A DNA stretch of 32,000 bases from Sinorhizobium meliloti (GCF_017876815.1 NZ_JAGIOS010000004.1:1-32000); one strand, 5' to 3'; shown: positions 1 through 19,900, numbered from the stretch's first letter. Notes: generated by a model not told the origin, from the sequence alone. A program made the numbers and translations.

Positions 1-1969
1 CGAGCGACAGCCGCCGCAGACGCTCCATCATTTGAACGGCCAACAATGAGTGGCCGCCGAGTTCGAAGAAGTTGTCGTGGCGCCCGACCTGCTCGACGCC
101 GAGAAGCTCGGCCCAGATCCCGGCCAGCAGCGTCTCGATCTCGCCCTGCGGCGCCTCGTAGGCCCGACGCGCATAGGCATCGTCGTCGGGGACCGGCAGC
201 GCCTTGCGATCGAGCTTGCCGTTCACCGTCAGCGGCAGTGCATCCAGCCGCACGAAGGCCGACGGCACCATGTAGTCCGGCAGCAGGCCACCCAGATGCG
301 CCCGCAACGACGCAGCAAGCCCGGCGCCATCGGCTTCGGCCGACCCGTCCGTCGTCTTCGCAACCACATAGGCGACGAGCCGCTTGTCGCCCGCCGCATC
401 CGCGTGCGCCACCACCGCGGCATCGCCGACAAGCTCATGCTCCAGCAGCCGGGCGGCGATCTCGCCCGGCTCGATGCGGAAGCCGCGGATCTTCACCTGG
501 TCGTCATTGCGGCCCAGAAACTCGAGATTGCCGTCCGGCAGGTAGCGCGCCAGGTCGCCGCTCCGGTACATCCGGGCGCCGGCCTTGCCGCTGAACGGAT
601 CCGCCAGGAACCGCTCCGCCGTCAGATCCGGACGGTTCAGGTAGCCGCGCGCCACCCCCGCCCCGCCGATATAAAGCTCACCAACCGCCCCAAACGGAAC
701 CGGCTGACCATGGCCGTCAAGCACATAAAGCCGCGTGTTCGCAATCGGACGGCCGATCGGCACATACCGGTGAGGCGCCTCAATTCTCGTGTCGGTAAGA
801 AAGGTGGTCGCCCAAATCGTAGTCTCCGTCGGACCATAAAGATTTCTGAGAGATTTTACCCTTCTGCCGAGGTTCGAGGCCAGTTCTGAAGGCAACGCTT
901 CGCCGCCACACAACGCACTTAAATCGGGCGCACCCTCCCAGCCGGCGTCGAAGAGCATACGCCACGCCGCGGGGTCGCCTGCATCACAGTTATCTTCTGA
1001 TGGGATAGATACCGCTGTAATCCAATAACACTGGTTCCGTGAGCAACAACGACGTTAGCTCCCACGGCCAGTGGCAGATAGAGTTCCAGCCCCGCAATGT
1101 CGAAAGAGATCGTCGTGATCGCGAGGAGTGAATCGCGCTCTGTGAGGCCCGATACATCTAAAAGAGCGCGTAGAACATTGAGAACACTTGCATGCTCGAC
1201 CATGACGCCCTTAGGCGTGCCGGTGGATCCCGATGTGTAGATGACATAGGCGAGATTGCGGGCTGTCAGGCCGAGGGCATGCGGGTCGGGATCGTCAGGG
1301 ACTGGTCGGCCCAAGCGGCATGGCCGCATCGAGATCGACCGCGCTCAGATCGGCGATTGCCTCGGCGCCCAACGCCGCGCGGCCGGCGGCGTCGCAAAGC
1401 AGCAGCCGCGGGCCGGCATCGTCGAGCAACTGCCGCAGCCGTTCGCCGGATAGGCCGGGTCGAGCGGCACATAGGCGCCGCCGGCCTTGAGGATCGCCAG
1501 CAGTCCCACCACCATCGCCGGGCTGCGCTCGACGCAGATCGCCACTGGCTGGTCCGGCCTCACCCCGAGCCCGATCAGATGATGGGCCAGCCGGTTGGCA
1601 TCGGCATTGAGCGCGCCATAGGAGATCGACTGCTCTTCGAAGACCAGTGCGACCGCGTCGGCACCCGGCGCACCTGCGCCTCGAACAGCGCATGCACGCA
1701 AAGATCCGACGGATAGTCCGCTTCCGTCCGGTTCAACTCCTCCAGCAGGTAGCTGCGCTCCTCAGCCGGAAGAATGTCGAGCTCGCGCACCGGCCTATCG
1801 GGCGCTTGCTCCAGCGCGTCGACCAGTTGCTCGAGCGCCCGCTGCATATAGCCGCAGATCCGATCGGCGGAGATCGTTCGACCGCATCCGCCGTGAGCCC
1901 CAGCTCCTGACCAAAATCATCCACCGACAATGTCAGCGGGTAGTTGGTCCGTTCCTCGCCCCCAGCCAT
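1..1969 (-). pseudogene. Frameshift-broken, 3'-partial continuation of the same NRPS (module 10: end of C domain, Gly-type A domain, start of T domain); may be a sequencing artefact rather than a true pseudogene
   Basis: Minus-strand fragments 1733..1969, 1575..1847, 1345..1701 and 919..1329, plus an unlisted frame open to nt 1, together reproduce the C-end/A/T sequence of intact module 5 (16159-19431). Continuity is broken by seven 1-nt deletions relative to the other copies, at 971-974, 1298/1299, 1317-1318, 1448-1449, 1660-1661, 1876 and 1959-1963. The GGHS Ser codon is at 47-49. The Ser-to-Ser distance M9-M10 is 3266 nt, exactly 3273 (the M4-M5 distance) minus 7. Confidence 0.85.
758..1191 (-). 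other. A-domain specificity cassette c (copy 3 of 3), Gly, carrying a 1-nt deletion
   Basis: Nucleotide sequence matches 16975-17409 except that the G5 run is G4 at 971-974, shifting the frame ([12 protein letters not shown] instead of [12 protein letters not shown]). Confidence 0.8.
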
Positions 1970-4900
1970 TCCATGCCGGACAGCACGTCGCTTGTTCCCT
2001 CGCCGGCCATGGCCGGCGTGTTGTGGCGATAGTTCAGCAGCGCACTGAACAGTGGCGCTGGTGCGGCAATATCGCAGCAGCGTTGCGCCAATGCCAGCGA
2101 GGCATGCTCGTGTGAGAGCAATTCGGCCAGACGGGCGTGGGCGATACGCACACTTTCCTCGACCCCGGTCTCATCCAGATCCAGCCGCAACGGCAAGGTA
2201 TTCATGAACAAGCCCATGGCACGGTCGGCGCCGGCACCCGCATGCATGCGGCCGAACAGCACCGTGCCGAACACCACCTGCTCGCGCCCGCTGCTCAGCG
2301 CCACCACCTGGGCCCAGGCCAGATGGCAAAGGCTAGCCAGACTCACCCCCAGCCGCCGCGCCTGGTGGCGCAGCCGATCGTTGAGCGCCTGCGGCAGCAT
2401 CCGCCGTGCCTCGCGGGATCCGCGGCCGTCGCCGTAGACCTCGCTCAGAGCGAACGGCAGGGTCGGCTCGTCGATGTCGGCCAGCATCTCCCGGAAGAAC
2501 GCTTCATGCGCTTTGGCATCCATGCCAAGCCGCGCCTGCGCCACCAGGTTGCGGAACGGCTGCGGCGCTGCAAGCTCATGCGCGCGCCCCTGCAGCACGG
2601 CCCGGACCTCGGCATGCATCACTTCGGCCGTCGTATGATCGCCGATCAGATGGTGCTGCAACACCAAAAGCAGCCAGCGCCCACTGCCCGGTTCGCGCGC
2701 GATCACGAACCGCATCAGCGGCGCCCGGCCAAGGTCGAGACGGTACTGGCGCGGATCGAACCGCCGCCTGAGCTCATCGGCGCCGGAACCATCACAGCCC
2801 TCCAGCTCGACCTCGAGCACATCCAAGGCCGCCTTGCGCCAGACAACCTGCGCCGGGCTCGACAGACCCTCCCAGACAAAGGCCGTGCGCAGAATGTCGT
2901 GGCGGTCGACCACCTGTTGAACCGCAGCAAGGTAGCGATCGAGCACACCCCGCTCGGCAAAGGCCATCTGCGACATCAGGAGATAGGGGTCACCCTGGGT
3001 TGCCAGCAAATGATGGAACAGAATGCCGTCCTGCAGCGGCGACAGGCCATAGATATCCTGGATATTGCCGACGCCGCCGGGCACCGTCGACACGATCCGG
3101 TCGATCTCCGGTTGGGTAAGATCGATCAGCGGCAGCATCTGCGGCGTGATCGCCGTACTCTGTTCCGTGATCGGGTTGGCAGGCACCTCCACCTCCCGGT
3201 GGCTGCCAAGACTGGCGGCCAGATCGGCAAGCATCGGCTTTGCAAATACGGTGCGAACCTCGACCCCGAGCGACAGCCGCCGCAGACGCTCCATCATTTG
3301 AACGGCCAACAATGAGTGGCCGCCGAGCTCGAAGAAGTTGTCGTGGCGCCCGACCTGCTCGACGCCGAGAAGCTCGGCCCAGATCCCGGCCAGCAGCGTC
3401 TCGATCTCGCCCTGCGGCGCCTCGTAGGCCCGACGCGCATAGGCATCGTCGTCGGGGACCGGCAGCGCCTTGCGGTCGAGCTTGCCGTTCACCGTCAGCG
3501 GCAGTGCATCCAGCCGCACGAAGGCCGACGGCACCATGTAGTCCGGTAGCAGGCCACCCAGATGCGCCCGCAACGACGCAGCAAGCCCGGCGCCATCGGC
3601 TTCGGCCGACCCGTCCGTCGTCTTCGCAACCACATAGGCGACGAGCCGCTTGTCGCCCGCCGCATCCGCGTGCGCCACCACCGCGGCATCGCCGACAAGC
3701 TCATGCTCCAGCAGCCGGGCGGCGATCTCGCCCGGCTCGATGCGGAAGCCGCGGATCTTCACCTGGTCGTCATTGCGGCCCAGAAACTCGAGATTGCCGT
3801 CCGGCAGGTAGCGCGCCAGGTCGCCGCTCCGGTACATCCGGGCGCCGGCCTTGCCGCTGAACGGATCCGCCAGGAACCGCTCCGCCGTCAGATCCGGACG
3901 GTTCAGGTAGCCGCGCGCCACCCCCGCCCCGCCGATATAAAGCTCACCAACCGCCCCAAACGGAACCGGCTGACCATGGCCGTCCAGCAGATAGATCCGC
4001 GTGTTCGAGATCGGACGCCCGATCGTTTCGACAACAGCCTGTCCCCTCGGCATGCAAATCCAAGTCGAGTACGTCGTTGTCTCCGAAGGGGCGTACAGAT
4101 TGCAAATCTTCTGGACGCGCGTGCTCTCGAATATCCTCTCGATTAGGTCTGCCTTCACCCGCTCGCCCGCCAAATTGATGACGCTTGCCGATGCCGGCAC
4201 GGCTTTCTGGTTGACCAGAGCGGTGATCGCCGAGGGGACCGTGTTGATCAAGGAGGCATCCACGGGCGTTCGGGCCAGCTTCAGTGCATCCTCGACGAGG
4301 TACAGCTTGCTTCCCTGCGAAAGCGGAAGGAAACACTCGTAAACGGACAGATCAAAACAGACCGAGGTCGAGAACAGCGTGCGCCTGATCTCTGATTCGG
4401 CAAACACGCCGCCACTCCAATGCAGCAGGTTCACTGTGTTCCGATGCTCGACCATGACGCCCTTAGGCGTGCCGGTGGATCCCGATGTGTAGATGACATA
4501 GGCGAGATTGCGGGCTGTCAGGCCGAGGGCATGCGGGTCGGGATCGTCAGCGGACTGGTCGGCCCAGGCGGGCATGGCCGTATCGAGATCGACCGCGCTC
4601 AGATCGGCGATTGCCTCGGCGCCCAACGCCGCGCGGCCGGCGGCGTCGCAAAGCAGCAGCCGCGGGCCGGCATCGTCGAGCAACTGCCGCAGCCGTTCGC
4701 CGGGATAGGCCGGGTCGAGCGGCACATAGGCGCCGCCGGCCTTGAGGATCGCCAGCAGTCCCACCACCATCGCCGGGCTGCGCTCGACGCAGATCGCCAC
4801 TGGCTGGTCCGGCCTCACCCCGAGCCCGATCAGATGATGGGCCAGCCGGTTGGCATCGGCATTGAGCGCGCCATAGGAGATCGACTGCTCTTCGAAGACC

Positions 4901-7900
4901 AGTGCGACCGCGTCGGGCACCCGGCGCACCTGCGCCTCGAACAGCGCATGCACGCAAAGATCCGACGGATAGTCCGCTTCCGTCCGGTTCAACTCCTCCA
5001 GCAGGTAGCTGCGCTCCTCAGCCGGAAGAATGTCGAGCTCGCGCACCGGCCTATCGGGCGCTTGCTCCAGCGCGTCGACCAGTTGCTCGAGCGCCCGCTG
5101 CATATAGCCGCAGATCCGATCGGCGGAGATCGGTTCGACCGCATCCGCCGTGAGCCCCAGCTCCTGACCAAAATCATCCACCGACAATGTCAGCGGGTAG
5201 TTGGTCCGTTCCTCGTCCCCCAGCCATTCCATGCCGGACAGCACGTCGCTTGTTCCCTCGCCGGCCATGGCCGGCGTGTTGTGGCGATAGTTCAGCAGCG
5301 CACTGAACAGTGGCGCTGGTGCGGCAATATCGCTGCAGCGTTGCGCCAATGCCAGCGAGGCATGCTCGTGTGAGAGCAATTCGGCCAGACGGGCGTGGGC
5401 GATACGCACACTTTCCTCGACCCCGGTCTCATCCAGATCCAGCCGCAACGGCAAGGTATTCATGAACAAGCCCATGGCACGGTCGGCGCCGGCACCCGCA
5501 TGCATGCGGCCGAACAGCACCGTGCCGAACACCACCTGCTCGCGCCCGCTGCTCAGCGCCACCACCTGGGCCCAGGCCAGATGGCAAAGGCTAGCCAGAC
5601 TCACCCCCAGCCGCCGCGCCTGGTGGCGCAGCCGATCGTTGAGCGCCTGCGGCAGCATCCGCCGTGCCTCGCGGGATCCGCGGCCGTCGCCGTAGACCTC
5701 GCTCAGAGCGAACGGCAGGGTCGGCTCGTCGATGTCGGCCAGCATCTCCCGGAAGAACGCTTCATGCGCTTTGGCATCCATGCCAAGCCGCGCCTGCGCC
5801 ACCAGGTTGCGGAACGGCTGCGGCGCTGCAAGCTCATGCGCGCGCCCCTGCAGCACGGCCCGGACCTCGGCATGCATCACTTCGGCCGTCGTATGATCGC
5901 CGATCAGATGGTGCTGCAACACCAAAAGCAGCCAGCGCCCACTGCCCGGTTCGCGCGCGATCACGAACCGCATCAGCGGCGCCCGGCCAAGGTCGAGACG
6001 GTACTGGCGCGGATCGAACCGCCGCCTGAGCTCATCGGCGCCGGAACCATCACAGCCCTCCAGCTCGACCTCGAGCACATCCAAGGCCGCCTTGCGCCAG
6101 ACAACCTGCGCCGGGCTCGACAGACCCTCCCAGACAAAGGCCGTGCGCAGAATGTCGTGGCGGTCGACCACCTGTTGAACCGCAGCAAGGTAGCGATCGA
6201 GCACACCCCGCTCGGCAAAGGCCATCTGCGACATCAGGAGATAGGGGTCACCCTGGGTTGCCAGCAAATGATGGAACAGAATGCCGTCCTGCAGCGGCGA
6301 CAGGCCATAGATATCCTGGATATTGCCGACGCCGCCGGGCACCGTCGACACGATCCGGTCGATCTCCGGTTGGGTAAGATCGATCAGCGGCAGCATCTGC
6401 GGCGTGATCGCCGTACTCTGTTCCGTGATCGGGTTGGCAGGCACCGCCACCTCCCGGTGGCTGCCAAGACTGGCGGCCAGATCGGCAAGCATCGGCTTTG
6501 CAAATACGGTGCGAACCTCGACCCCGAGCGACAGCCGCCGCAGACGCTCCATCATTTGAACGGCCAACAATGAGTGGCCGCCGAGTTCGAAGAAGTTGTC
6601 GTGGCGCCCGACCTGCTCGACGCCGAGAAGCTCGGCCCAGATCCCGGCCAGCAGCGTCTCGATCTCGCCCTGCGGCGCCTCGTAGGCCCGACGCGCATAG
6701 GCATCGTCGTCGGGGACCGGCAGCGCCTTGCGGTCGAGCTTGCCGTTCACCGTCAGCGGCAGTGCATCCAGCCGCACGAAGGCCGACGGCACCATGTAGT
6801 CCGGTAGCAGGCCACCCAGATGCGCCCGCAACGACGCAGCAAGCCCGGCGCCATCGGCTTCGGCCGACCCGTCCGTCGTCTTCGCAACCACATAGGCGAC
6901 GAGCCGCTTGTCGCCCGCCGCATCCGCGTGCGCCACCACCGCGGCATCGCCGACAAGCTCATGCTCCAGCAGCCGGGCGGCGATCTCGCCCGGCTCGATG
7001 CGGAAGCCGCGGATCTTCACCTGGTCGTCATTGCGGCCCAGAAACTCGAGATTGCCGTCCGGCAGGTAGCGCGCCAGGTCGCCGCTCCGGTACATCCGGG
7101 CGCCGGCCTTGCCGCTGAACCGATCCGCCAGGAACCGCTCCGCCGTCAGATCCGGACGGTTCAGGTAGCCGCGCGCCACCCCCGCCCCGCCGATATAAAG
7201 CTCACCAACCGCCCCAAACGGGACGGGTGCGCCATGACCGTCAAGCACATAAAGCCGCGTGTTCGCAATCGGACGGCCGATCGGGATTGACGTAAGGCCT
7301 TCTACGTCGCCCGTTATTTCGAATGCGGCGCATCCAACGGTGGCCTCTGTCGGACCAAAATGGTTGATCAGGCGCACATTTGGAAAACGCCGCTGCCAAA
7401 GTTGCATGTCTGCTGGAACCAGCGATTCGCCACCAACCATAAGTGCTTTAGTTGGAGGTTGTCCCTCGTTATCATCAATCTTTTTGTTAAGAATGCTCAG
7501 ATGCGAGGGAGTAACTTTAACCAAGTCGAAGGCTTGTCCCTTCTTCAATTCACCGAGAGAGATAATTTGGACAGTTGGATCTAGAAGATGAAGTTTCGTT
7601 CCCGCCAACAGCGGACCGAATAGGGTCGTAACGATGCCATCAAAACTCATTGAATGCGTTACAGGCGAGCCGTTGGACGTTCTTTTGTAAAAGCTTCGAT
7701 TTGACCACTGCAAATAGTTCGACAAGTGTTGATGCTCGACCATGACGCCCTTAGGCGTGCCGGTGGATCCCGATGTGTAGATGACATAGGCGAGATTGCG
7801 GGCTGTCAGGCCGAGGGCATGCGGGTCGGGATCGTCAGCGGACTGGTCGGCCCAGGCGGGCATGGCTGCATCGAGATCGACCGCGCTCAGATCGGCGATT

Positions 7901-10900
7901 GCCTCGGCGCCCAACGCCGCGCGACCGGCGGCGTCGCAAAGCAGCAGCCGCGGGCCGGCATCGTCGAGCAACTGCCGCAGCCGTTCGCCGGGATAGGCCG
8001 GGTCGAGCGGCACATAGGCGCCGCCGGCCTTGAGGATCGCCAGCAGTCCCACCACCATCGCCGGGCTGCGCTCGACGCAGATCGCCACTGGCTGGTCCGG
8101 CCTCACCCCGAGCCCGATCAGATGATGGGCCAGCCGGTTGGCATCGGCATTGAGCGCGCCATAGGAGATCGACTGCTCTTCGAAGACCAGTGCGACCGCG
8201 TCGGGCACCCGGCGCACCTGCGCCTCGAACAGCGCATGCACGCAAAGATCCGACGGATAGTCCGCTTCCGTCCGGTTCAACTCCTCCAGCAGGTAGCTGC
8301 GCTCGTCGGGAGGCAGGATGTCCAGCTCGGACACCGGCTGCTCGGCATCGGCAAGCATCGCCCGCAGCAGCGCCAGCAGATAACCACATTGCCGCTCGAT
8401 CGTCGCCCGGTCGAACAACGCCGTCGCATAACCGAGAGTCCCGGCGATGGCCTCGCCCTGCTCTCCCAGGTTCAGTTCCAGATCGAACTTGACCTGATCG
8501 AGCCCCTCGCCCGCAGCCTCCACCTGCAGCCCCGGCAGGTCCAATGACCCGCCGGTGTTGTTCTGCCAGGCCAGTCCCACCTGGAACAACGGCGTGTGAC
8601 CGAGAGCCCGGGGCGGCTGGACGATCTCCACCACCTGCTCGAACGGCAGGTCCTGATGATCCTGCGCAGTCAAGGCCGCGCGCCGCGCCCGTTCCAGGAG
8701 ATCGGACACGCTCGGCTCGCCCGACAGATCGATTCGAACCGCCAGGGTGTTGACGAAGAAACCGATTAGATCCTCGATCTCGCGGCGACGACGATTGGCC
8801 GTCGGCACACCGATCACGATATCGTCCTGCCCGGACAGGCGCGACAGCACCGCAGCCCAGGCCGCCAGCACTGTCATGAACAACGTCGTGCCATGCTGCC
8901 GGCTCAGCCGCTTGAGCCCGCGCGTCAGAGCCTCATCGATGATAACCGGCACGCTGGCTCCGGCAAACGACTGCTGTGCCGGCCGCGGCCGGTCCGTCGG
9001 CAGCGCCAGACGGGCCGGGGCGCCAGACAGGGTGTCGCGCCAATACTGCGCCTGACGCTGCAGCCGCTCGCCGGACAACCATTGCCGTTGCCAGGCGGCA
9101 TAATCCGGATACTGGATCGCCAGCGGCGGCAAAGGATCGTCCTCTCCAGCCTCAAACGCGCGGTAAAGGCTGCTGAGCTCGCGCACCAGCACCCCCATCG
9201 ACCAGCCGTCCGAGACTATGTGATGCTGCGTCAGCAGAAAGACGTGCTCCTCATCCGCCAGCCGGATCAGCCGGCCGCGGATCAGCGGCTCGCGCGCCAG
9301 ATCGAACGGCGTGCGCGCCTCTTCTTGGCACAGATCCAAAAGCGCGGCTTGCGCATCCGGCCTGTCCCGCAGATCGTGCTCGACCACCGGCAATCCCCTG
9401 TCCCCGGACAAAATCTGGACCTGCGGGTCATCCTCTCCGGCGACGAACGTGCAGCGCAGCGCCTCGTGACGGGCAAACAGGCGGTCAAGGCTGCGCCGCC
9501 AGGCGACACGGTCGAGTCTGCCCTGCAGTCGCCACCCCAGGGGAATGTTATAGTTCGTGCTGTCTTCGTCCAACTGTGCCAAGAACCAGAGACGCTGCTG
9601 CGAATAGGACAGCGGAAGCGCACCATCACGTCCGACTGGCATGATGACCGGTGCTGTCTGCGCACCAGAACCGTTCAGCACTTCGCCAACACTTAGCGCC
9701 AAATCGGCCAATGTTGGCTTGGCGAACAGGATCGCCAGCGGCAGCTCCACTGCCAAGGCCTCGGTCAGCCGGACGAGCACGCGCACCGCCAACAATGAGT
9801 GGCCGCCGAGCTCGAAGAAGTTGTCGTGGCGCCCGACCTGCTCGACGCCGAGAAGCTCGGCCCAGATCCCGGCCAGCAGCGTCTCGATCTCGCCCTGCGG
9901 CGCCTCGTAGGCCCGACGCGCATAGGCATCGTCGTCGGGGACCGGCAGCGCCTTGCGGTCGAGCTTGCCGTTCACCGTCAGCGGCAGTGCATCCAGCCGC
10001 ACGAAGGCCGACGGCACCATGTAGTCCGGTAGCAGGCCACCCAGATGCGCCCGCAACGACGCAGCAAGCCCGGCGCCATCGGCTTCGGCCGACCCGTCCG
10101 TCGTCTTCGCAACCACATAGGCGACGAGCCGCTTGTCGCCCGCCGCATCCGCGTGCGCCACCACCGCGGCATCGCCGACAAGCTCATGCTCCAGCAGCCG
10201 GGCGGCGATCTCGCCCGGCTCGATGCGGAAGCCGCGGATCTTCACCTGGTCGTCATTGCGGCCCAGAAACTCGAGATTGCCGTCCGGCAGGTAGCGCGCC
10301 AGGTCGCCGCTCCGGTACATCCGGGCGCCGGCCTTGCCGCTGAACGGATCCGCCAGGAACCGCTCCGCCGTCAGATCCGGACGGTTCAGGTAGCCGCGCG
10401 CCACCCCCGCCCCGCCGATATAAAGCTCACCAACCGCCCCAAACGGAACCGGCTGACCATGGCCGTCCAGCAGATAGATCCGCGTGTTCGAGATCGGACG
10501 CCCGATCGTTTCGACAACAGCCTGTCCCCTCGGCATGCAAATCCAAGTCGAGTACGTCGTTGTCTCCGAAGGGGCGTACAGATTGCAAATCTTCTGGACG
10601 CGCGTGCTCTCGAATATCCTCTCGATTAGGTCTGCCTTCACCCGCTCGCCCGCCAAATTGATGACGCTTGCCGATGCCGGCACGGCTTTCTGGTTGACCA
10701 GAGCGGTGATCGCCGAGGGGACCGTGTTGATCAAGGAGGCATCCACGGGCGTTCGGGCCAGCTTCAGTGCATCCTCGACGAGGTACAGCTTGCTTCCCTG
10801 CGAAAGCGGAAGGAAACACTCGTAAACGGACAGATCAAAACAGACCGAGGTCGAGAACAGCGTGCGCCTGATCTCTGATTCGGCAAACACGCCGCCACTC

Positions 10901-13900
10901 CAATGCAGCAGGTTCACTGTGTTCCGATGCTCGACCATGACGCCCTTAGGCGTGCCGGTGGATCCCGATGTGTAGATGACATAGGCGAGATTGCGGGCTG
11001 TCAGGCCGAGGGCATGCGGGTCGGGATCGTCAGCGGACTGGTCGGCCCAGGCGGGCATGGCCGTATCGAGATCGACCGCGCTCAGATCGGCGATTGCCTC
11101 GGCGCCCAACGCCGCGCGACCGGCGGCGTCGCAAAGCAGCAGCCGCGGGCCGGCATCGTCGAGCAACTGCCGCAGCCGTTCGCCGGGATAGGCCGGGTCG
11201 AGCGGCACATAGGCGCCGCCGGCCTTGAGGATCGCCAGCAGTCCCACCACCATCGCCGGGCTGCGCTCGACGCAGATCGCCACTGGCTGGTCCGGCCTCA
11301 CCCCGAGCCCGATCAGATGATGGGCCAGCCGGTTGGCATCGGCATTGAGCGCGCCATAGGAGATCGACTGCTCTTCGAAGACCAGTGCGACCGCGTCGGG
11401 CACCCGGCGCACCTGCGCCTCGAACAGCGCATGCACGCAAAGATCCGACGGATAGTCCGCTTCCGTCCGGTTCAACTCCTCCAGCAGGTAGCTGCGCTCG
11501 TCGGGAGGCAGGATGTCCAGCTCGGACACCGGCTGCTCGGCATCGGCAAGCATCGCCCGCAGCAGCGCCAGCAGATAACCACATTGCCGCTCGATCGTCG
11601 CCCGGTCGAACAACGCCGTCGCATAACCGAGAGTCCCGGCGATGGCCTCGCCCTGCTCTCCCAGGTTCAGTTCCAGATCGAACTTGACCTGATCGAGCCC
11701 CTCGCCCGCAGCCTCCACCTGCAGCCCCGGCAGGTCCAATGACCCGCCGGTGTTGTTCTGCCAGGCCAGTCCCACCTGGAACAACGGCGTGTGACCGAGA
11801 GCCCGGGGCGGCTGGACGATCTCCACCACCTGCTCGAACGGCAGGTCCTGATGATCCTGCGCAGTCAAGGCCGCGCGCCGCGCCCGTTCCAGGAGATCGG
11901 ACACGCTCGGCTCGCCCGACAGATCGATTCGAACCGCCAGGGTGTTGACGAAGAAACCGATTAGATCCTCGATCTCGCGGCGACGACGATTGGCCGTCGG
12001 CACACCGATCACGATATCGTCCTGCCCGGACAGGCGCGACAGCACCGCAGCCCAGGCCGCCAGCACTGTCATGAACAACGTCGTGCCATGCTGCCGGCTC
12101 AGCCGCTTGAGCCCGCGCGTCAGAGCCTCATCGATGATAACCGGCACGCTGGCTCCGGCAAACGACTGCTGTGCCGGCCGCGGCCGGTCCGTCGGCAGCG
12201 CCAGACGGGCCGGGGCGCCAGACAGGGTGTCGCGCCAATACTGCGCCTGACGCTGCAGCCGCTCGCCGGACAACCATTGCCGTTGCCAGGCGGCATAATC
12301 CGGATACTGGATCGCCAGCGGCGGCAAAGGATCGTCCTCTCCAGCCTCAAACGCGCGGTAAAGGCTGCTGAGCTCGCGCACCAGCACCCCCATCGACCAG
12401 CCGTCCGAGACTATGTGATGCTGCGTCAGCAGAAAGACGTGCTCCTCATCCGCCAGCCGGATCAGCCGGCCGCGGATCAGCGGCTCGCGCGCCAGATCGA
12501 ACGGCGTGCGCGCCTCTTCTTGGCACAGATCCAAAAGCGCGGCTTGCGCATCCGGCCTGTCCCGCAGATCGTGCTCGACCACCGGCAATCCCCTGTCCCC
12601 GGACAAAATCTGGACCTGCGGGTCATCCTCTCCGGCGACGAACGTGCAGCGCAGCGCCTCGTGACGGGCAAACAGGCGGTCAAGGCTGCGCCGCCAGGCG
12701 ACACGGTCGAGTCTGCCCTGCAGTCGCCACCCCAGGGGAATGTTATAGTTCGTGCTGTCTTCGTCCAACTGTGCCAAGAACCAGAGACGCTGCTGCGAAT
12801 AGGACAGCGGAAGCGCACCATCACGTCCGACTGGCATGATGACCGGTGCTGTCTGCGCACCAGAACCGTTCAGCACTTCGCCAACACTTAGCGCCAAATC
12901 GGCCAATGTTGGCTTGGCGAACAGGATCGCCAGCGGCAGCTCCACTGCCAAGGCCTCGGTCAGCCGGACGAGCACGCGCACCGCCAACAATGAGTGGCCG
13001 CCGAGCTCGAAGAAGTTGTCGTGGCGCCCGACCTGCTCGACGCCGAGAAGCTCGGCCCAGATCCCGGCCAGCAGCGTCTCGATCTCGCCCTGCGGCGCCT
13101 CGTAGGCCCGACGCGCATAGGCATCGTCGTCGGGGACCGGCAGCGCCTTGCGGTCGAGCTTGCCGTTCACCGTCAGCGGCAGTGCATCCAGCCGCACGAA
13201 GGCCGACGGCACCATGTAGTCCGGTAGCAGGCCACCCAGATGCGCCCGCAACGACGCAGCAAGCCCGGCGCCATCGGCTTCGGCCGACCCGTCCGTCGTC
13301 TTCGCAACCACATAGGCGACGAGCCGCTTGTCGCCCGCCGCATCCGCGTGCGCCACCACCGCGGCATCGCCGACAAGCTCATGCTCCAGCAGCCGGGCGG
13401 CGATCTCGCCCGGCTCGATGCGGAAGCCGCGGATCTTCACCTGGTCGTCATTGCGGCCCAGAAACTCGAGATTGCCGTCCGGCAGGTAGCGCGCCAGGTC
13501 GCCGCTCCGGTACATCCGGGCGCCGGCCTTGCCGCTGAACGGATCCGCCAGGAACCGCTCCGCCGTCAGATCCGGACGGTTCAGGTAGCCGCGCGCCACC
13601 CCCGCCCCGCCGATATAAAGCTCACCAACCGCCCCAAACGGAACCGGCTGACCATGGCCGTCAAGCACATAAAGCCGCGTGTTCGCAATCGGACGGCCGA
13701 TCGGCACATACCGGTGAGGCGCCTCAATTCTCGTGTCGGTAAGAAAGGTGGTCGCCCAAATCGTAGTCTCCGTCGGACCATAAAGATTTCTGAGAGATTT
13801 TACCCTTCTGCCGAGGTTCGAGGCCAGTTCTGAAGGCAACGCTTCGCCGCCACACAACGCACTTAAATCGGGCGCACCCTCCCAGCCGGCGTCGAAGAGC

Positions 13901-16900
13901 ATACGCCACGCCGCGGGGGTCGCCTGCATCACAGTTATCTTCTGATGGGATAGATACCGCTGTAATCCAATAACACTGGTTCCGTGAGCAACAACGACGT
14001 TAGCTCCCACGGCCAGTGGCAGATAGAGTTCCAGCCCCGCAATGTCGAAAGAGATCGTCGTGATCGCGAGGAGTGAATCGCGCTCTGTGAGGCCCGATAC
14101 ATCTAAAAGAGCGCGTAGAACATTGAGAACACTTGCATGCTCGACCATGACGCCCTTAGGCGTGCCGGTGGATCCCGATGTGTAGATGACATAGGCGAGA
14201 TTGCGGGCTGTCAGGCCGAGGGCATGCGGGTCGGGATCGTCAGCGGACTGGTCGGCCCAAGCGGGCATGGCCGCATCGAGATCGACCGCGCTCAGATCGG
14301 CGATTGCCTCGGCGCCCAACGCCGCGCGACCGGCGGCGTCGCAAAGCAGCAGCCGCGGGCCGGCATCGTCGAGCAACTGCCGCAGCCGTTCGCCGGGATA
14401 GGCCGGGTCGAGCGGCACATAGGCGCCGCCGGCCTTGAGGATCGCCAGCAGTCCCACCACCATCGCCGGGCTGCGCTCGACGCAGATCGCCACTGGCTGG
14501 TCCGGCCTCACCCCGAGCCCGATCAGATGATGGGCCAGCCGGTTGGCATCGGCATTGAGCGCGCCATAGGAGATCGACTGCTCTTCGAAGACCAGTGCGA
14601 CCGCGTCGGGCACCCGGCGCACCTGCGCCTCGAACAGCGCATGCACGCAAAGATCCGACGGATAGTCCGCTTCCGTCCGGTTCAACTCCTCCAGCAGGTA
14701 GCTGCGCTCCTCAGCCGGAAGAATGTCGAGCTCGCGCACCGGCCTATCGGGCGCTTGCTCCAGCGCGTCGACCAGTTGCTCGAGCGCCCGCTGCATATAG
14801 CCGCAGATCCGATCGGCGGAGATCGGTTCGACCGCATCCGCCGTGAGCCCCAGCTCCTGACCAAAATCATCCACCGACAATGTCAGCGGGTAGTTGGTCC
14901 GTTCCTCGCCCCCCAGCCATTCCATGCCGGACAGCACGTCGCTTGTTCCCTCGCCGGCCATGGCCGGCGTGTTGTGGCGATAGTTCAGCAGCGCACTGAA
15001 CAGTGGCGCTGGTGCGGCAATATCGCTGCAGCGTTGCGCCAATGCCAGCGAGGCATGCTCGTGTGAGAGCAATTCGGCCAGACGGGCGTGGGCGATACGC
15101 ACACTTTCCTCGACCCCGGTCTCATCCAGATCCAGCCGCAACGGCAAGGTATTCATGAACAAGCCCATGGCACGGTCGGCGCCGGCACCCGCATGCATGC
15201 GGCCGAACAGCACCGTGCCGAACACCACCTGCTCGCGCCCGCTGCTCAGCGCCACCACCTGGGCCCAGGCCAGATGGCAAAGGCTAGCCAGACTCACCCC
15301 CAGCCGCCGCGCCTGGTGGCGCAGCCGATCGTTGAGCGCCTGCGGCAGCATCCGCCGTGCCTCGCGGGATCCGCGGCCGTCGCCGTAGACCTCGCTCAGA
15401 GCGAACGGCAGGGTCGGCTCGTCGATGTCGGCCAGCATCTCCCGGAAGAACGCTTCATGCGCTTTGGCATCCATGCCAAGCCGCGCCTGCGCCACCAGGT
15501 TGCGGAACGGCTGCGGCGCTGCAAGCTCATGCGCGCGCCCCTGCAGCACGGCCCGGACCTCGGCATGCATCACTTCGGCCGTCGTATGATCGCCGATCAG
15601 ATGGTGCTGCAACACCAAAAGCAGCCAGCGCCCACTGCCCGGTTCGCGCGCGATCACGAACCGCATCAGCGGCGCCCGGCCAAGGTCGAGACGGTACTGG
15701 CGCGGATCGAACCGCCGCCTGAGCTCATCGGCGCCGGAACCATCACAGCCCTCCAGCTCGACCTCGAGCACATCCAAGGCCGCCTTGCGCCAGACAACCT
15801 GCGCCGGGCTCGACAGACCCTCCCAGACAAAGGCCGTGCGCAGAATGTCGTGGCGGTCGACCACCTGTTGAACCGCAGCAAGGTAGCGATCGAGCACACC
15901 CCGCTCGGCAAAGGCCATCTGCGACATCAGGAGATAGGGGTCACCCTGGGTTGCCAGCAAATGATGGAACAGAATGCCGTCCTGCAGCGGCGACAGGCCA
16001 TAGATATCCTGGATATTGCCGACGCCGCCGGGCACCGTCGACACGATCCGGTCGATCTCCGGTTGGGTAAGATCGATCAGCGGCAGCATCTGCGGCGTGA
16101 TCGCCGTACTCTGTTCCGTGATCGGGTTGGCAGGCACCGCCACCTCCCGGTGGCTGCCAAGACTGGCGGCCAGATCGGCAAGCATCGGCTTTGCAAATAC
16201 GGTGCGAACCTCGACCCCGAGCGACAGCCGCCGCAGACGCTCCATCATTTGAACGGCCAACAATGAGTGGCCGCCGAGTTCGAAGAAGTTGTCGTGGCGC
16301 CCGACCTGCTCGACGCCGAGAAGCTCGGCCCAGATCCCGGCCAGCAGCGTCTCGATCTCGCCCTGCGGCGCCTCGTAGGCCCGACGCGCATAGGCATCGT
16401 CGTCGGGGACCGGCAGCGCCTTGCGATCGAGCTTGCCGTTCACCGTCAGCGGCAGTGCATCCAGCCGCACGAAGGCCGACGGCACCATGTAGTCCGGCAG
16501 CAGGCCACCCAGATGCGCCCGCAACGACGCAGCAAGCCCGGCGCCATCGGCTTCGGCCGACCCGTCCGTCGTCTTCGCAACCACATAGGCGACGAGCCGC
16601 TTGTCGCCCGCCGCATCCGCGTGCGCCACCACCGCGGCATCGCCGACAAGCTCATGCTCCAGCAGCCGGGCGGCGATCTCGCCCGGCTCGATGCGGAAGC
16701 CGCGGATCTTCACCTGGTCGTCATTGCGGCCCAGAAACTCGAGATTGCCGTCCGGCAGGTAGCGCGCCAGGTCGCCGCTCCGGTACATCCGGGCGCCGGC
16801 CTTGCCGCTGAACGGATCCGCCAGGAACCGCTCCGCCGTCAGATCCGGACGGTTCAGGTAGCCGCGCGCCACCCCCGCCCCGCCGATATAAAGCTCACCA

Positions 16901-19900
16901 ACCGCCCCAAACGGAACCGGCTGACCATGGCCGTCAAGCACATAAAGCCGCGTGTTCGCAATCGGACGGCCGATCGGCACATACCGGTGAGGCGCCTCAA
17001 TTCTCGTGTCGGTAAGAAAGGTGGTCGCCCAAATCGTAGTCTCCGTCGGACCATAAAGATTTCTGAGAGATTTTACCCTTCTGCCGAGGTTCGAGGCCAG
17101 TTCTGAAGGCAACGCTTCGCCGCCACACAACGCACTTAAATCGGGCGCACCCTCCCAGCCGGCGTCGAAGAGCATACGCCACGCCGCGGGGGTCGCCTGC
17201 ATCACAGTTATCTTCTGATGGGATAGATACCGCTGTAATCCAATAACACTGGTTCCGTGAGCAACAACGACGTTAGCTCCCACGGCCAGTGGCAGATAGA
17301 GTTCCAGCCCCGCAATGTCGAAAGAGATCGTCGTGATCGCGAGGAGTGAATCGCGCTCTGTGAGGCCCGATACATCTAAAAGAGCGCGTAGAACATTGAG
17401 AACACTTGCATGCTCGACCATGACGCCCTTAGGCGTGCCGGTGGATCCCGATGTGTAGATGACATAGGCGAGATTGCGGGCTGTCAGGCCGAGGGCATGC
17501 GGGTCGGGATCGTCAGCGGACTGGTCGGCCCAAGCGGGCATGGCCGCATCGAGATCGACCGCGCTCAGATCGGCGATTGCCTCGGCGCCCAACGCCGCGC
17601 GGCCGGCGGCGTCGCAAAGCAGCAGCCGCGGGCCGGCATCGTCGAGCAACTGCCGCAGCCGTTCGCCGGGATAGGCCGGGTCGAGCGGCACATAGGCGCC
17701 GCCGGCCTTGAGGATCGCCAGCAGTCCCACCACCATCGCCGGGCTGCGCTCGACGCAGATCGCCACTGGCTGGTCCGGCCTCACCCCGAGCCCGATCAGA
17801 TGATGGGCCAGCCGGTTGGCATCGGCATTGAGCGCGCCATAGGAGATCGACTGCTCTTCGAAGACCAGTGCGACCGCGTCGGGCACCCGGCGCACCTGCG
17901 CCTCGAACAGCGCATGCACGCAAAGATCCGACGGATAGTCCGCTTCCGTCCGGTTCAACTCCTCCAGCAGGTAGCTGCGCTCCTCAGCCGGAAGAATGTC
18001 GAGCTCGCGCACCGGCCTATCGGGCGCTTGCTCCAGCGCGTCGACCAGTTGCTCGAGCGCCCGCTGCATATAGCCGCAGATCCGATCGGCGGAGATCGGT
18101 TCGACCGCATCCGCCGTGAGCCCCAGCTCCTGACCAAAATCATCCACCGACAATGTCAGCGGGTAGTTGGTCCGTTCCTCGTCCCCCAGCCATTCCATGC
18201 CGGACAGCACGTCGCTTGTTCCCTCGCCGGCCATGGCCGGCGTGTTGTGGCGATAGTTCAGCAGCGCACTGAACAGTGGCGCTGGTGCGGCAATATCGCT
18301 GCAGCGTTGCGCCAATGCCAGCGAGGCATGCTCGTGTGAGAGCAATTCGGCCAGACGGGCGTGGGCGATACGCACACTTTCCTCGACCCCGGTCTCATCC
18401 AGATCCAGCCGCAACGGCAAGGTATTCATGAACAAGCCCATGGCACGGTCGGCGCCGGCACCCGCATGCATGCGGCCGAACAGCACCGTGCCGAACACCA
18501 CCTGCTCGCGCCCGCTGCTCAGCGCCACCACCTGGGCCCAGGCCAGATGGCAAAGGCTAGCCAGACTCACCCCCAGCCGCCGCGCCTGGTGGCGCAGCCG
18601 ATCGTTGAGCGCCTGCGGCAGCATCCGCCGTGCCTCGCGGGATCCGCGGCCGTCGCCGTAGACCTCGCTCAGAGCGAACGGCAGGGTCGGCTCGTCGATG
18701 TCGGCCAGCATCTCCCGGAAGAACGCTTCATGCGCTTTGGCATCCATGCCAAGCCGCGCCTGCGCCACCAGGTTGCGGAACGGCTGCGGCGCTGCAAGCT
18801 CATGCGCGCGCCCCTGCAGCACGGCCCGGACCTCGGCATGCATCACTTCGGCCGTCGTATGATCGCCGATCAGATGGTGCTGCAACACCAAAAGCAGCCA
18901 GCGCCCACTGCCCGGTTCGCGCGCGATCACGAACCGCATCAGCGGCGCCCGGCCAAGGTCGAGACGGTACTGGCGCGGATCGAACCGCCGCCTGAGCTCA
19001 TCGGCGCCGGAACCATCACAGCCCTCCAGCTCGACCTCGAGCACATCCAAGGCCGCCTTGCGCCAGACAACCTGCGCCGGGCTCGACAGACCCTCCCAGA
19101 CAAAGGCCGTGCGCAGAATGTCGTGGCGGTCGACCACCTGTTGAACCGCAGCAAGGTAGCGATCGAGCACACCCCGCTCGGCAAAGGCCATCTGCGACAT
19201 CAGGAGATAGGGGTCACCCTGGGTTGCCAGCAAATGATGGAACAGAATGCCGTCCTGCAGCGGCGACAGGCCATAGATATCCTGGATATTGCCGACGCCG
19301 CCGGGCACCGTCGACACGATCCGGTCGATCTCCGGTTGGGTAAGATCGATCAGCGGCAGCATCTGCGGCGTGATCGCCGTACTCTGTTCCGTGATCGGGT
19401 TGGCAGGCACCGCCACCTCCCGGTGGCTGCCAAGACTGGCGGCCAGATCGGCAAGCATCGGCTTTGCAAATACGGTGCGAACCTCGACCCCGAGCGACAG
19501 CCGCCGCAGACGCTCCATCATTTGAACGGCCAACAATGAGTGGCCGCCGAGCTCGAAGAAGTTGTCGTGGCGCCCGACCTGCTCGACGCCGAGAAGCTCG
19601 GCCCAGATCCCGGCCAGCAGCGTCTCGATCTCGCCCTGCGGCGCCTCGTAGGCCCGACGCGCATAGGCATCGTCGTCGGGGACCGGCAGCGCCTTGCGGT
19701 CGAGCTTGCCGTTCACCGTCAGCGGCAGTGCATCCAGCCGCACGAAGGCCGACGGCACCATGTAGTCCGGTAGCAGGCCACCCAGATGCGCCCGCAACGA
19801 CGCAGCAAGCCCGGCGCCATCGGCTTCGGCCGACCCGTCCGTCGTCTTCGCAACCACATAGGCGACGAGCCGCTTGTCGCCCGCCGCATCCGCGTGCGCC

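What the first reader, a model, noticed from the sequence alone, without database searches (positions are those of the whole stretch)
8305..12984. Second cassette class: C-terminal half of the T domain, the linker and the whole C domain are exchanged as one unit, with a breakpoint 2-3 codons after the phosphopantetheinyl Ser
All ten T domains are identical up to [12 protein letters not shown]. From the Ala/Val codons onward (about 7 nt downstream of the Ser codon) there are two versions. [31 protein letters not shown] is always followed by the HHLIGDH-type C domain. [32 protein letters not shown] is always followed by the LCL-like HHIVSDGW C domain. Identity between the two resumes exactly at ...[19 protein letters not shown] (for example 8304/8305 and 5016/5017). 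The LCL-type cassette is 1485 nt (8305-9789, 11500-12984, 31078 to beyond the window). The other is 1548 nt (for example 5017-6564). This suggests that T-helix/C-domain contacts are kept together during module shuffling, while the A-T N-terminal half stays with the A domain.
Basis: seen in the sequence. Interest (0 to 1): 0.68.

Follow-up and report, generated by a model that had tools for sequence, protein, structure and literature searches.

The report
NRPS carrier-half plus condensation-domain unit
In a giant rhizobial plasmid gene for a peptide-making enzyme whose repeated modules are otherwise almost identical, the second half of each carrier domain always travels with the following condensation domain as one block that probably sets L or D stereochemistry; this is a very clean natural example of an exchange unit that has already been described in other synthetases.

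Summary
The window holds one minus-strand NRPS gene, closest to Sinorhizobium meliloti accessory-plasmid NRPS genes. Its modules are 99.5-100% identical in DNA except for two kinds of insert. One is the block examined here: the T domain from the third codon after the Ser, the T-C linker, and the whole C domain up to ERSYLL. It has two versions, an LCL type of 1485 nt and a dual E/C type of 1548 nt. Copies within a type differ by 0-3 nt, while the two types share 28% aa and 47% nt identity. T variant and C type stay coupled in every module of the complete clusters of related plasmids, and in 155 of 156 non-identical T-C pairs from other genera. [quoted passage not shown] Some qualifications apply. 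Both edges vary by a few to about 40 nt between relatives. The C domain also occurs without the T half. One draft-genome module may be uncoupled. The two versions share no internal homology, so passive linkage explains part of the pattern.

The parts
1933..31971 (-). Intact part of the NRPS reading frame (10012 aa). It is open at the 5' end of the gene and continues below 1933 through frameshifts to window position 1.
11500..12984 (-). LCL-type unit, copy 1 (1485 nt). It comprises the T second half ([34 protein letters not shown]), the linker, the LCL condensation domain (HHIVSDGW) and the first part of the C-A interdomain.
8305..9789 (-). LCL-type unit, copy 2 (1485 nt), 100% identical to copy 1.
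31078..32000 (-). 3' part (923 nt) of a third LCL condensation domain, identical to the other two copies. By synteny with ml46 it is the first C domain of the protein, preceded there by a formyltransferase domain and not by a T domain.
5017..6564 (-). Dual E/C-type unit (1548 nt). It comprises the T second half ([33 protein letters not shown]), the linker, and a condensation domain with HHLLATQGD and HHLIGDH. Further intact copies lie at 27799-29346, 24520-26067, 21241-22788, 17983-19530 and 14710-16257.
1761..3306 (-). Seventh dual E/C-type unit, with two single-base deletions (at about 1959 and 1877) that break the frame.
12982..12993 (-). 5' junction. The Ser codon TCA is at 12993-12991, the shared TTG TTG GC at 12990-12983, and the first differing base at 12982 (third base of the Ala codon). 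The same layout occurs at 9798-9787 and in all dual-type modules.
8263..8305 (-). 3' junction. The last differing base is 8305. Identity resumes at 8304 with ERS + [14 protein letters not shown] (the CA motif), which ends 28 aa before the A1 motif ISYGAL.
10927..11499 (-). CA-A3 linker of the module between the two LCL units (573 nt, ERSYLL to GVMVEH), near-identical in all ten modules.
10468..10926 (-). A-core specificity cassette, type b (RNTVNLLHW...), one of four types in the window (a, b, c, d).
9790..10467 (-). A6-T1 linker (the C-terminal part of the A domain plus the T first half up to GGHSLL), shared by all modules whatever the A core or the downstream unit.
1..40 (-). Start of the dual-type T second half of the tenth T domain (Ser codon at 49-47), cut by the window edge.

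Best explanation
The window is part of a multimodular NRPS gene on a rhizobial accessory plasmid that is built on a unit-and-linker plan. Two DNA linkers are kept almost identical in every module. One runs from the CA motif to A3. The other runs from A6 to the T-domain GGHSLL motif. The homogeneity comes from intragenic homologous recombination: module duplication, unequal crossing-over and gene conversion.

Two kinds of non-homologous insert sit between the linkers. One is the A core, which sets substrate choice. The other is the block studied here: T helices 2-4, the T-C linker, the C domain and the first part of the C-A interdomain. This block comes as an LCL version, which leaves the upstream residue L. 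It also comes as a dual epimerisation/condensation version, which is inferred to make that residue D.

Recombination can start and end only in the linkers, so each block moves whole. The part of the carrier domain that docks on the downstream condensation domain therefore stays with its partner.

Shown here: the mosaic itself, both junctions at base resolution, homogenised linkers, module-order differences between strains, and the coupling of T variant with C type.

Inferred: epimerisation by the dual type, and the functional need for a matched T half and C domain.
For: Mosaic and junctions.

Domain types:
- Both units match the Pfam Condensation and PP-binding families.
- The LCL unit is closest to Txo1/Txo2 and to the TycC PCP-C didomain 2JGP.
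- The other unit is closest to McyB, PvdL and SrfA C domains, which I take from memory to be DCL-type. It also carries the N-terminal HHLLATQGD motif.

Linker homogenisation: linkers are 99.7% identical within S. meliloti and about 97% within two Mesorhizobium genomes, against 78-87% between genomes.

Rearrangement between strains: related strains hold the same units in different orders.
- ml46: a a a b c c b d c b | e b a a f c
- WSM419: a a a d b b c b | b a e a a a f c
- The window has one module more than ml46, and colinearity ends exactly at the A3 edge.

Coupling counts:
- It holds for all T domains in ml46, WSM419 and five other plasmid loci. These include a terminal T with an LCL-type second half that faces an LCL C domain on the next protein, and a third T variant before the TE domain.
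- Among 149 non-identical T domains from other genera, 67 of 68 that precede dual C domains carry the ERLR-type helix 2, and 88 of 88 that precede LCL do not.

Identity of T halves:
- Second half: 0.34 for same locus and different type, against 0.47 for different locus and same type.
- First half: 0.77 against 0.68 for the same two comparisons.

Junctions elsewhere: in independently homogenised genomes the 5' junction lies 7-18 nt after the Ser codon. Short-read contigs from several genera consist of just the LCL unit plus a short overhang.

Literature: the same boundaries and the same logic are described. The hydrophobic residues of T helix 3 that dock on the C domain lie in the second half.
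Against: - Within this gene the coupling is not independent evidence. All copies of a type are near-clonal, and the two types share no in-register identical stretch; their longest shared string is 14 nt and out of register. They would therefore be co-inherited even without selection.
- The trans-paired T at the gene boundary may be a former cis unit that was later split.
- The unit edges are not fixed. WSM419 has a reciprocal exchange of the last 13 codons and an A/T polymorphism at the junction codon.
- One Paraburkholderia atlantica module joins an LCL-type T half to a dual C domain.
- The same C domain works without any T half in cis, behind a formyltransferase domain or a docking sequence.
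- The peptide product is unknown, so there is no stereochemical proof of the D/L assignment.
Confidence: 0.8

Rival explanations
1. Passive linkage only. The T second half and the C domain travel together simply because they are adjacent and the two versions share no homology anywhere between the GGHSLL motif and the CA motif. No crossover can separate them, and no functional matching of T half to C domain is needed.
For: - The longest common string between the two cassettes is 14 nt and is out of register.
- All copies of a type are near-clonal.
- Where the two types do share sequence, recombinants appear. These are the 13-codon tail exchange in WSM419 at a GCCGA microhomology and the Paraburkholderia module whose junction lies in the shared FARPVLxDLAAS stretch.
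Against: - Type-specific T second halves are conserved across phyla. They are more alike between loci than the two types are within one gene, and 155 of 156 non-identical pairs are coupled.
- In many rhizobial lineages the two T types share about 45 nt at the end of the T domain, yet only one candidate recombinant was seen.
- Published phylogenetic and covariation work reaches the same conclusion.
Confidence: 0.15
2. Assembly or polishing artefact. Near-identical repeats of about 3.2 kb were collapsed or homogenised by the assembler, which created artificially sharp borders.
For: - The window contains a cluster of seven single-base deletions at 975-1959.
- It has one module more than the closest record.
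- A synonymous GAG/GAA site differs between orthologous modules of the window and ml46.
All three could be consensus errors.
Against: - The same mosaic with the same junctions is present in the WSM419 pSMED03 reference record (which I recall as a finished genome) and in several independent complete plasmids.
- The cassettes are long, intact reading frames that match different branches of the C-domain family.
Confidence: 0.02
3. In-place divergence. All modules descend from one duplicated module. The T-half/C region diverged under selection into two forms, while the rest stayed constant under purifying selection, without any exchange of blocks.
For: None specific. It would also give conserved flanks and variable cores.
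Against: - The flanks are identical at synonymous sites too, over as much as 1710 nt, whereas the cassettes are only 47% identical in DNA and differ in length by 63 nt.
- The two C domains belong to different, ancient C-domain clades.
- The first differences at the junction are synonymous.
- Unit order differs between strains that are 98-99.8% identical.
Confidence: 0.02

Closest known systems
"Chirality unit" of the unit-and-linker organisation in Candidatus Endobryopsis kahalalidifaciens NRPSs (PNAS Nexus 2024, PMC11428043)
   Same: [quoted passage not shown] That motif reads ELLETFNxTE(V/A)YP there and [14 protein letters not shown] here.
- It is flanked by conserved CA-A3 and A6-T1 linkers that act as recombination substrates.
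- A separate A3-to-A6 specificity unit exists.
- A third T subtype precedes the TE domain.
(searches compared)
   Different: - There, the D subtype is T-E-DCL with a separate epimerisation domain. Here it is a single dual E/C domain.
- The host here is a culturable rhizobium, the genes lie on conjugative accessory plasmids, and the mosaic is seen inside one gene pair rather than across about 20 pathways.
- Linker identity here reaches 100% at the DNA level.
- The authors state that this organisation had not been seen in other pathways.
XUT exchange unit and the natural recombination breakpoint in the T-domain FFxxGGxS motif (Bozhüyük et al., bioRxiv 10.1101/2022.12.02.518901)
   Same: - A sharp change of phylogenetic history inside the T core motif.
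- The T second half shares its history with the downstream C domain and splits by LCL versus C/E.
- Natural T-C versus T-C/E exchanges change stereochemistry.

   Different: - Their breakpoint is a region inferred from protein phylogenies, and their engineered fusion site IV lies inside FFxx|GGxS. Here the junction is seen at base resolution, 8 nt after the Ser codon, that is three residues into helix 2.
- Their unit is Tp2-C-A-Tp1. Here the A domain is itself split into linker, core and linker.
Exchange of TC-LCL didomains for TE-E-DCL tridomains in cyanobacterial and other NRPSs (Baunach et al. 2021, PMC8097286)
   Same: - A special T domain and a special C domain are replaced together when stereochemistry changes.
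- A-core swaps are a separate, complementary class of event.

   Different: There, the exchanged piece runs from A8 of one module to A1 of the next, so it includes the Asub domain and the whole T domain. Here the Asub domain and the T first half stay in the invariant linker.
T1-motif subtypes linked to the adjacent C/E subtype (He et al. 2023, PMC10212144; earlier TE/TC work recalled from memory)
   Same: The sequence around and after the Ser depends on the subtype of the next domain.
   Different: That work concerns the core motif itself (LGGHSL, LGGDSI, LGGHSI). Here the core motif GGHSLL is identical in both types, and the differences begin after it.

Membership tests
NRPS chirality unit (PMC11428043) | 5' edge at the T1 motif, so that the T first half is uninformative and the T second half is subtype-specific | tested here: met
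   The first difference is the 9th base after the Ser codon. The T first half is identical in all modules. In relatives the second half follows the type and the first half follows the locus.
NRPS chirality unit (PMC11428043) | 3' edge at the CA motif, about 28 aa before A1 | tested here: met
   Identity resumes at ERS+[14 protein letters not shown], and 28 residues separate ...DYP from ISYGAL. In relatives the edge varies from 0 to 65 nt before the LN codon.
NRPS chirality unit (PMC11428043) | Flanked by conserved CA-A3 and A6-T1 linkers, with an independent A3-A6 specificity unit | tested here: met
   The linkers are 573 nt and about 680-725 nt long and near-identical in all ten modules. There are four A-core types. 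Types b and c each occur with both downstream units.
NRPS chirality unit (PMC11428043) | Subtypes correspond to the L or D configuration of the incorporated residue | not testable with these tools
   The product is unknown. The D assignment rests on dual E/C sequence motifs only.
Dual epimerisation/condensation (E/C) domain | Condensation fold with the HHxxxD active-site motif | tested here: met
   Pfam Condensation match at 137.8 bits over profile positions 2-455. The motif HHLIGDH is present.
Dual epimerisation/condensation (E/C) domain | Additional N-terminal HH[I/L]xxxxGD motif (criterion recalled from Rausch et al. 2007 and Balibar et al. 2005) | tested here: met
   HHLLATQGD is present in every HHLIGDH-type copy.
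Dual epimerisation/condensation (E/C) domain | Belongs to the D-clade of C domains and has no separate E domain upstream | tested here: met
   The closest solved structures are C domains of McyB, PvdL, BacC and SrfA, which I take from memory to be DCL-type. In contrast, the HHIVSDGW type is closest to Txo1/Txo2 and the TycC PCP-C didomain 2JGP. No E domain lies between T and C.
Dual epimerisation/condensation (E/C) domain | Catalyses epimerisation of the upstream thioester | not testable with these tools
   This needs product stereochemistry or an enzyme assay.
XUT natural breakpoint (bioRxiv 10.1101/2022.12.02.518901) | Recombination boundary inside or next to FFxxGGxS, with the T second half sharing the history of the downstream C domain | tested here: met
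   The junction is 8 nt after the Ser codon here, and 7-18 nt after it in other homogenised genomes. Coupling holds in 155 of 156 non-identical pairs.

The most novel reading that the evidence does not exclude
Conjugative accessory plasmids of rhizobia (Sinorhizobium, Rhizobium, Mesorhizobium, Bradyrhizobium, Paraburkholderia) carry a family of 8- to 17-module NRPS genes that form a second, independent natural unit-and-linker system. Linkers homogenised to as much as 100% DNA identity serve as recombination substrates. Strains that are 98-99.8% identical then encode different peptide sequences and D/L patterns by reshuffling A cores and T-half/C units. Because the hosts are culturable and genetically tractable, and because natural recombinants exist at both unit edges (the WSM419 tail swap and the Paraburkholderia T-half/dual-C module), the system would allow a direct test of which part of the T domain must match the downstream C domain.
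Probability: 0.45. Interest if true: 0.5.

Novelty: new member of a known kind. Interest (0 to 1): 0.33.

Why it matters
NRPS engineers need to know where modules can be cut without breaking carrier-to-catalyst contacts. This gene shows nature's own cut sites at single-base resolution: just after GGHSLL in the carrier domain, and at the CA motif before the adenylation domain. It agrees with the XUT and chirality-unit concepts and extends them to dual E/C domains and to rhizobial plasmids. The authors of the chirality-unit paper left open whether their organisation is peculiar to one uncultured algal symbiont. A culturable rhizobial counterpart suggests it is more general, and it offers a system in which T-half/C matching and peptide diversification between strains could be tested experimentally. 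For the scan itself, the finding is correct but already explained.

Tried and rejected
1. Exact source of the window. The closest records are S. meliloti ml46 pMl1 (99.84% over 20 kb) and ml56 pMl1 (99.76% over 10.3 kb). Neither is colinear with the whole window, so the source strain is not in the collections searched.

2. Single-sequence AlphaFold2 of the T domain. Confidence was low (mean pLDDT 55). Only the helix pattern (15-27, 46-59, 66-69, 74-85, with Ser at 45) was used, and only as agreement with the literature. No T-C didomain model was attempted, because no permitted deep alignment was available.

3. Literature search for this rhizobial NRPS or its product (pSMED03, WSM419, rhizobia plus NRPS). 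Nothing relevant was found in the held library.

4. A simple regular expression for the dual-type helix 2 gave three apparent exceptions. Two were near-misses (ERVRR, GRLRH), and only L035:3602 is a real exception.

5. Ungapped anchoring on the Ser codon is meaningless for loci whose linkers are not homogenised (L006, L034 and the Photorhabdus loci). Junction positions are quoted only for genomes with at least 96% upstream identity.

6. The synonymous GAG/GAA site 22 nt upstream of the junction was considered as a four-gamete proof of recombination. It is kept only as a note, because it differs between orthologous modules of two long-read assemblies and could be a polishing error.

7. The assembly-artefact and in-place-divergence explanations were rejected (see the rival explanations).


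Full report
**What is in the window.**

The only long reading frame is on the minus strand, 31971..1933 (10012 aa). The codons upstream of its first ATG read HHIVSDGWS, so the gene runs off the window. Below 1933 the same protein continues in shifting frames to position 1.

The protein is a non-ribosomal peptide synthetase with ten A-T modules. Both cassette proteins match the Pfam Condensation and PP-binding families.

**Check of the observation.**

The ten Ser codons lie at 29355, 26076, 22797, 19539, 16266, 12993, 9798, 6573, 3315 and 49. All T domains share ...GGC CAC TCA TTG TTG GC.

- The first difference between the two versions is the 9th base after the Ser codon (GCC vs GCG, both Ala).
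- The next difference is GTT vs GTG (both Val).
- The first amino-acid difference is Q vs R at residue +5.
- At the other end, the last difference is the base just before GAG CGC AGC (ERSYLL).

The block lengths are exactly 1485 and 1548 nt. The two complete LCL copies and the 923-nt partial copy are identical. The six intact dual copies differ at 0-3 sites. The seventh (3306-1761) lacks two bases.

Between the types, identity is 28% in protein and 47% in aligned codons. The longest shared string is 14 nt and is out of register. The flanks are perfectly identical for 21-1710 nt on one side and 380-1712 nt on the other. This cannot be chance.

Two corrections apply. The C type after the tenth T lies outside the window. 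The partial LCL copy at the 5' end is probably not preceded by a T domain (see "Limits of the one-unit description" below).

**The rest of the module.**

Outside this block the modules have three parts:
- a 573-nt stretch from ERSYLL to GVMVEH;
- a variable A core in four versions, named here a, b, c and d;
- a stretch of about 680-725 nt from [14 protein letters not shown] to GGHSLL.

The first and third parts are near-identical in all modules.

Read N to C, the window contains LCL-a-EC-a-EC-a-EC-b-EC-c-EC-c-LCL-b-LCL-d-EC-b-EC-c-EC. A cores b and c each occur with both downstream units.

**What the two C domains are.**

The HHIVSDGW domain is closest to the teixobactin Txo1/Txo2 C domains and to the TycC PCP-C didomain. 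It is therefore an ordinary LCL domain.

The HHLIGDH domain scores lower on the Pfam Condensation model. Its closest solved structures are C domains of McyB, PvdL, BacC and SrfA, which I take from memory to be DCL-type. It carries a second motif, HHLLATQGD, near its N-terminus. From memory of Rausch et al. 2007 and Balibar et al. 2005, these features are the signature of dual epimerisation/condensation domains. No separate E domain is present. Epimerisation itself is inferred, not shown.

**Source and relatives.**

The window matches accessory plasmids of Sinorhizobium meliloti and S. medicae at 98.5-100% over a 5.2-kb probe. The closest record is CP140885.1 (S. meliloti ml46, plasmid pMl1, conjugative), at 99.84% over 20 kb. 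It is not the same record.

In ml46 the NRPS consists of two genes, of 11063 and 6778 aa. Neighbouring genes encode a phosphopantetheinyl transferase and a SagB-type dehydrogenase.

Relatives of the LCL unit occur at 74-85% aa identity in Sinorhizobium, Ensifer, Mesorhizobium, Bradyrhizobium, Rhizobium and Paraburkholderia. They occur at about 60-67% in Mycetohabitans, Photorhabdus, Xenorhabdus and several MAGs.

ml46 has 16 modules:
- Gene A: F-LCL-a-EC-a-EC-a-EC-b-EC-c-EC-c-L-b-L-d-EC-c-EC-b-T
- Gene B: LCL-e-L-b-L-a-L-a-EC-f-EC-c-T-TE

In ml46:
- Every QMMERL-type T precedes a dual C domain.
- Every RVLVRL-type T precedes an LCL domain.
- The last T of gene A is RVLVRL-type as far as FAKPTLA and then carries a docking-like tail. 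It faces the LCL domain that opens gene B.
- The final T has a third second half (RVLAQALALGMK...) in front of the TE domain.

S. medicae WSM419 pSMED03, which I recall as a finished reference genome, gives the same result for 15 modules. So do ml56, Rhizobium sp. 007, M. mediterraneum, a second S. medicae cluster and R. leguminosarum Vaf10.

In the 78 loci from other species I found 149 non-identical T domains followed by a recognisable domain.
- 67 of the 68 that precede dual C domains carry an ERLR-like helix 2.
- None of the 88 that precede LCL domains does.

Identity of the T halves separates as follows:

| Comparison | T second half | T first half |
|---|---|---|
| Same locus, different type | 0.34 | 0.77 |
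| Different locus, same type | 0.47 | 0.68 |

The second half therefore follows the type of the downstream domain, and the first half follows the locus.

**Evidence for recombination and concerted evolution.**

Linkers are 99.7% identical within the window and about 97% within two Mesorhizobium genomes. Between genomes they are only 78-87% identical.

Unit order differs between close strains. The window has one module more than ml46. About 2.8 kb of ml46 aligns twice to the window, and the colinear alignment stops at window 4444, which is the A3 edge of an A core.

In other genomes with homogenised linkers, the first mismatch between the two T types falls shortly after the Ser codon:
- S. terangae: 12 nt
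- M. waimense: 15 nt
- Mesorhizobium AaZ16 and M. kowhaii: 18 nt
- WSM419: 7-9 nt

Several short-read assemblies contain contigs of 1.5-1.8 kb that are just the LCL unit plus 30-80 nt upstream of the Ser codon and 41-51 nt past the start of the CA motif. That is the pattern expected if the flanks are repeats in those genomes too.

**Limits of the "one unit" description.**

1. The same LCL domain, with identical DNA, is used without a T half. In ml46 it follows a Formyl_trans_N domain, with identity starting at CAG ACA GCA (QTAPVIMPV). It also follows the N-terminal docking sequence of gene B, with identity starting at CGT GAT GGT (RDGALPL). By synteny, the partial copy at 31078-32000 is the first of these.
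2. In WSM419 one dual unit ends with the LCL-type last 13 codons ([13 protein letters not shown]), and one LCL unit ends with the dual-type last 13 codons ([13 protein letters not shown]). This is a reciprocal pair, joined at a GCCGA microhomology. In the window, ml46 and ml56, body and tail are always matched.
3. In WSM419 five of nine dual-type T domains read LLT and four read LLA at the junction codon.
4. In Paraburkholderia atlantica (L035, a draft scaffold) one module has an LCL-type T second half through ...FARPVLGDLAAS. It then switches to the dual-type linker and C domain. The junction lies in a stretch that the two T types share in that lineage. I cannot exclude a chimeric assembly there.
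5. The claim that the T first half stays with the A domain needs rewording. The T first half belongs to an invariant linker together with the C-terminal A subdomain, and it does not co-vary with the specificity core.

**Position on the T-domain fold.**

The literature places the Ser at the N-terminus of helix 2. It has the first T half contacting the A domain and the second half contacting the C domain. Hydrophobic residues of helix 3 (L65, L68 and F69 in TycC3-PCP numbering) form the docking surface for the C domain.

A single-sequence AlphaFold2 model of the window's T domain is of low confidence (pLDDT 55). It does show the expected helices at 15-27, 46-59, 66-69 and 74-85, with Ser at 45.

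The junction is therefore three to five residues into helix 2. Helices 2 (most of it), 3 and 4 go with the C domain. The two types differ in helix 2 (VRLTEAL vs ERLRRLS) and helix 3 (LAILF vs VRTVF).

**Comparison with what is known.**

Bozhüyük et al. (bioRxiv 10.1101/2022.12.02.518901) found a sharp change of phylogenetic history inside FFxxGGxS. They showed that the second T half shares its history with the downstream C domain and splits by LCL versus C/E. They noted natural T-C versus T-C/E exchanges and built the XUT engineering units on this basis.

The 2024 PNAS Nexus paper on Ca. Endobryopsis kahalalidifaciens (PMC11428043) defines four elements:
- a specificity unit from A3 to A6;
- two conserved linkers that act as recombination hot spots;
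- a third T subtype in front of the TE domain.

All four boundaries, the 28-aa spacing and the three T subtypes are reproduced here. The main difference is that the D-type unit here is a dual E/C domain rather than T-E-DCL. The other differences are the host, the plasmid location and the degree of DNA identity.

Baunach et al. 2021 describe joint replacement of TC-LCL by TE-E-DCL, but with wider borders running from A8 to A1. He et al. 2023 link the T1 motif to the subtype of the adjacent C domain. Here the core motif itself is the same in both types.

**Verdict.**

The phenomenon belongs to a known kind, and this is a new and unusually clean member of it.

I found no paper in the held library describing this rhizobial NRPS family. 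The chirality-unit authors say their organisation had not been seen elsewhere. The rhizobial system therefore has some value as a second, culturable example. That is the reason for a moderate rather than a low score.

Noticed in passing
window 975-1959 (minus strand): Seven single-base deletions, mostly in short C or G runs, fall within about 1 kb when this region is compared with an intact copy of the same module (window 19530-16224). They break the frame repeatedly, while the other 30 kb has no frameshift. This is either consensus error in a long-read assembly or recent decay of the tenth module.
   Followed up: partly
window about 1190-4443, compared with L079 28374-32405 and 29566-49901: The window carries one module (A core b plus a dual E/C unit) more than the closest record, ml46. 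Colinearity ends exactly at the A3 edge of an A core (window 4444). This is a module insertion or deletion between strains that are 99.8% identical, or else a misassembly.
   Followed up: partly
window, 22 nt upstream of each cassette start (e.g. 13006, 9811, 6586): A synonymous GAG/GAA site in FFE occurs in all four combinations with the two cassette types. It also differs between orthologous modules of the window and ml46. This could reflect gene conversion right next to the junction, or polishing errors among repeats.
   Followed up: partly
window, A cores, e.g. 10468-10926 (b) and 7290-7731 (d): Four A-core cassettes ([36 protein letters not shown]) lie between GVMVEH (A3) and IGRPI(A/S)NTR (A6). 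They correspond to the specificity unit of the published unit-and-linker model. Two more types (AQIVRLFE, QSLVNLTA) occur in ml46 and WSM419.
   Followed up: partly
L082 (S. medicae WSM419, minus strand), positions 9957 and 26354 of the reverse complement: The last 13 codons of the unit are exchanged reciprocally between one dual and one LCL cassette, with the crossover at a GCCGA microhomology. The final 40 nt or so before ERSYLL are therefore not tied to the C type.
   Followed up: yes
L035:3540-3770 (Paraburkholderia atlantica CNPSo 3155, scaffold_107): This is the only uncoupled module found. An LCL-type T second half is joined at ...DLAAS to a dual-type linker and C domain. The source is a draft short-read scaffold, so a chimeric assembly is not excluded.
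   Followed up: partly
L080 about 8460-9170 and L079 24979-25200 (CP140885.1, ml46): The first NRPS gene starts with a Formyl_trans_N domain (E = 3e-13) fused directly to an LCL condensation domain, with no A-T loading module in between. The gene boundary carries a docking-like tail and head. A SagB-type dehydrogenase and a PPTase lie downstream.
   Followed up: partly
L010, L014, L021, L026, L032, L040 and others: Short-read assemblies of Bradyrhizobium, Mesorhizobium and Rhizobium break these genes into 1.5-2 kb contigs that correspond to single units plus a k-mer-sized overhang. The clusters are therefore systematically fragmented and probably under-reported in draft genomes.
   Followed up: partly
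L083 (Rhizobium sp. 007 plasmid, minus strand): One gene mixes three sub-variants of the LCL-type T half (RSFSRLSQAVGV, QLSSRLSQAVGV and the Sinorhizobium-like [12 protein letters not shown]). This suggests that units were imported from different rhizobial lineages.
   Followed up: no
window dual cassettes, offsets 1101, 1348 and 1501 from each cassette start: The only polymorphisms among the intact dual units are non-synonymous: GLFVNT/GLFMNT, EWLGD/EWLGG and LEQAP/LERAP. They are shared in different combinations among copies.
   Followed up: no
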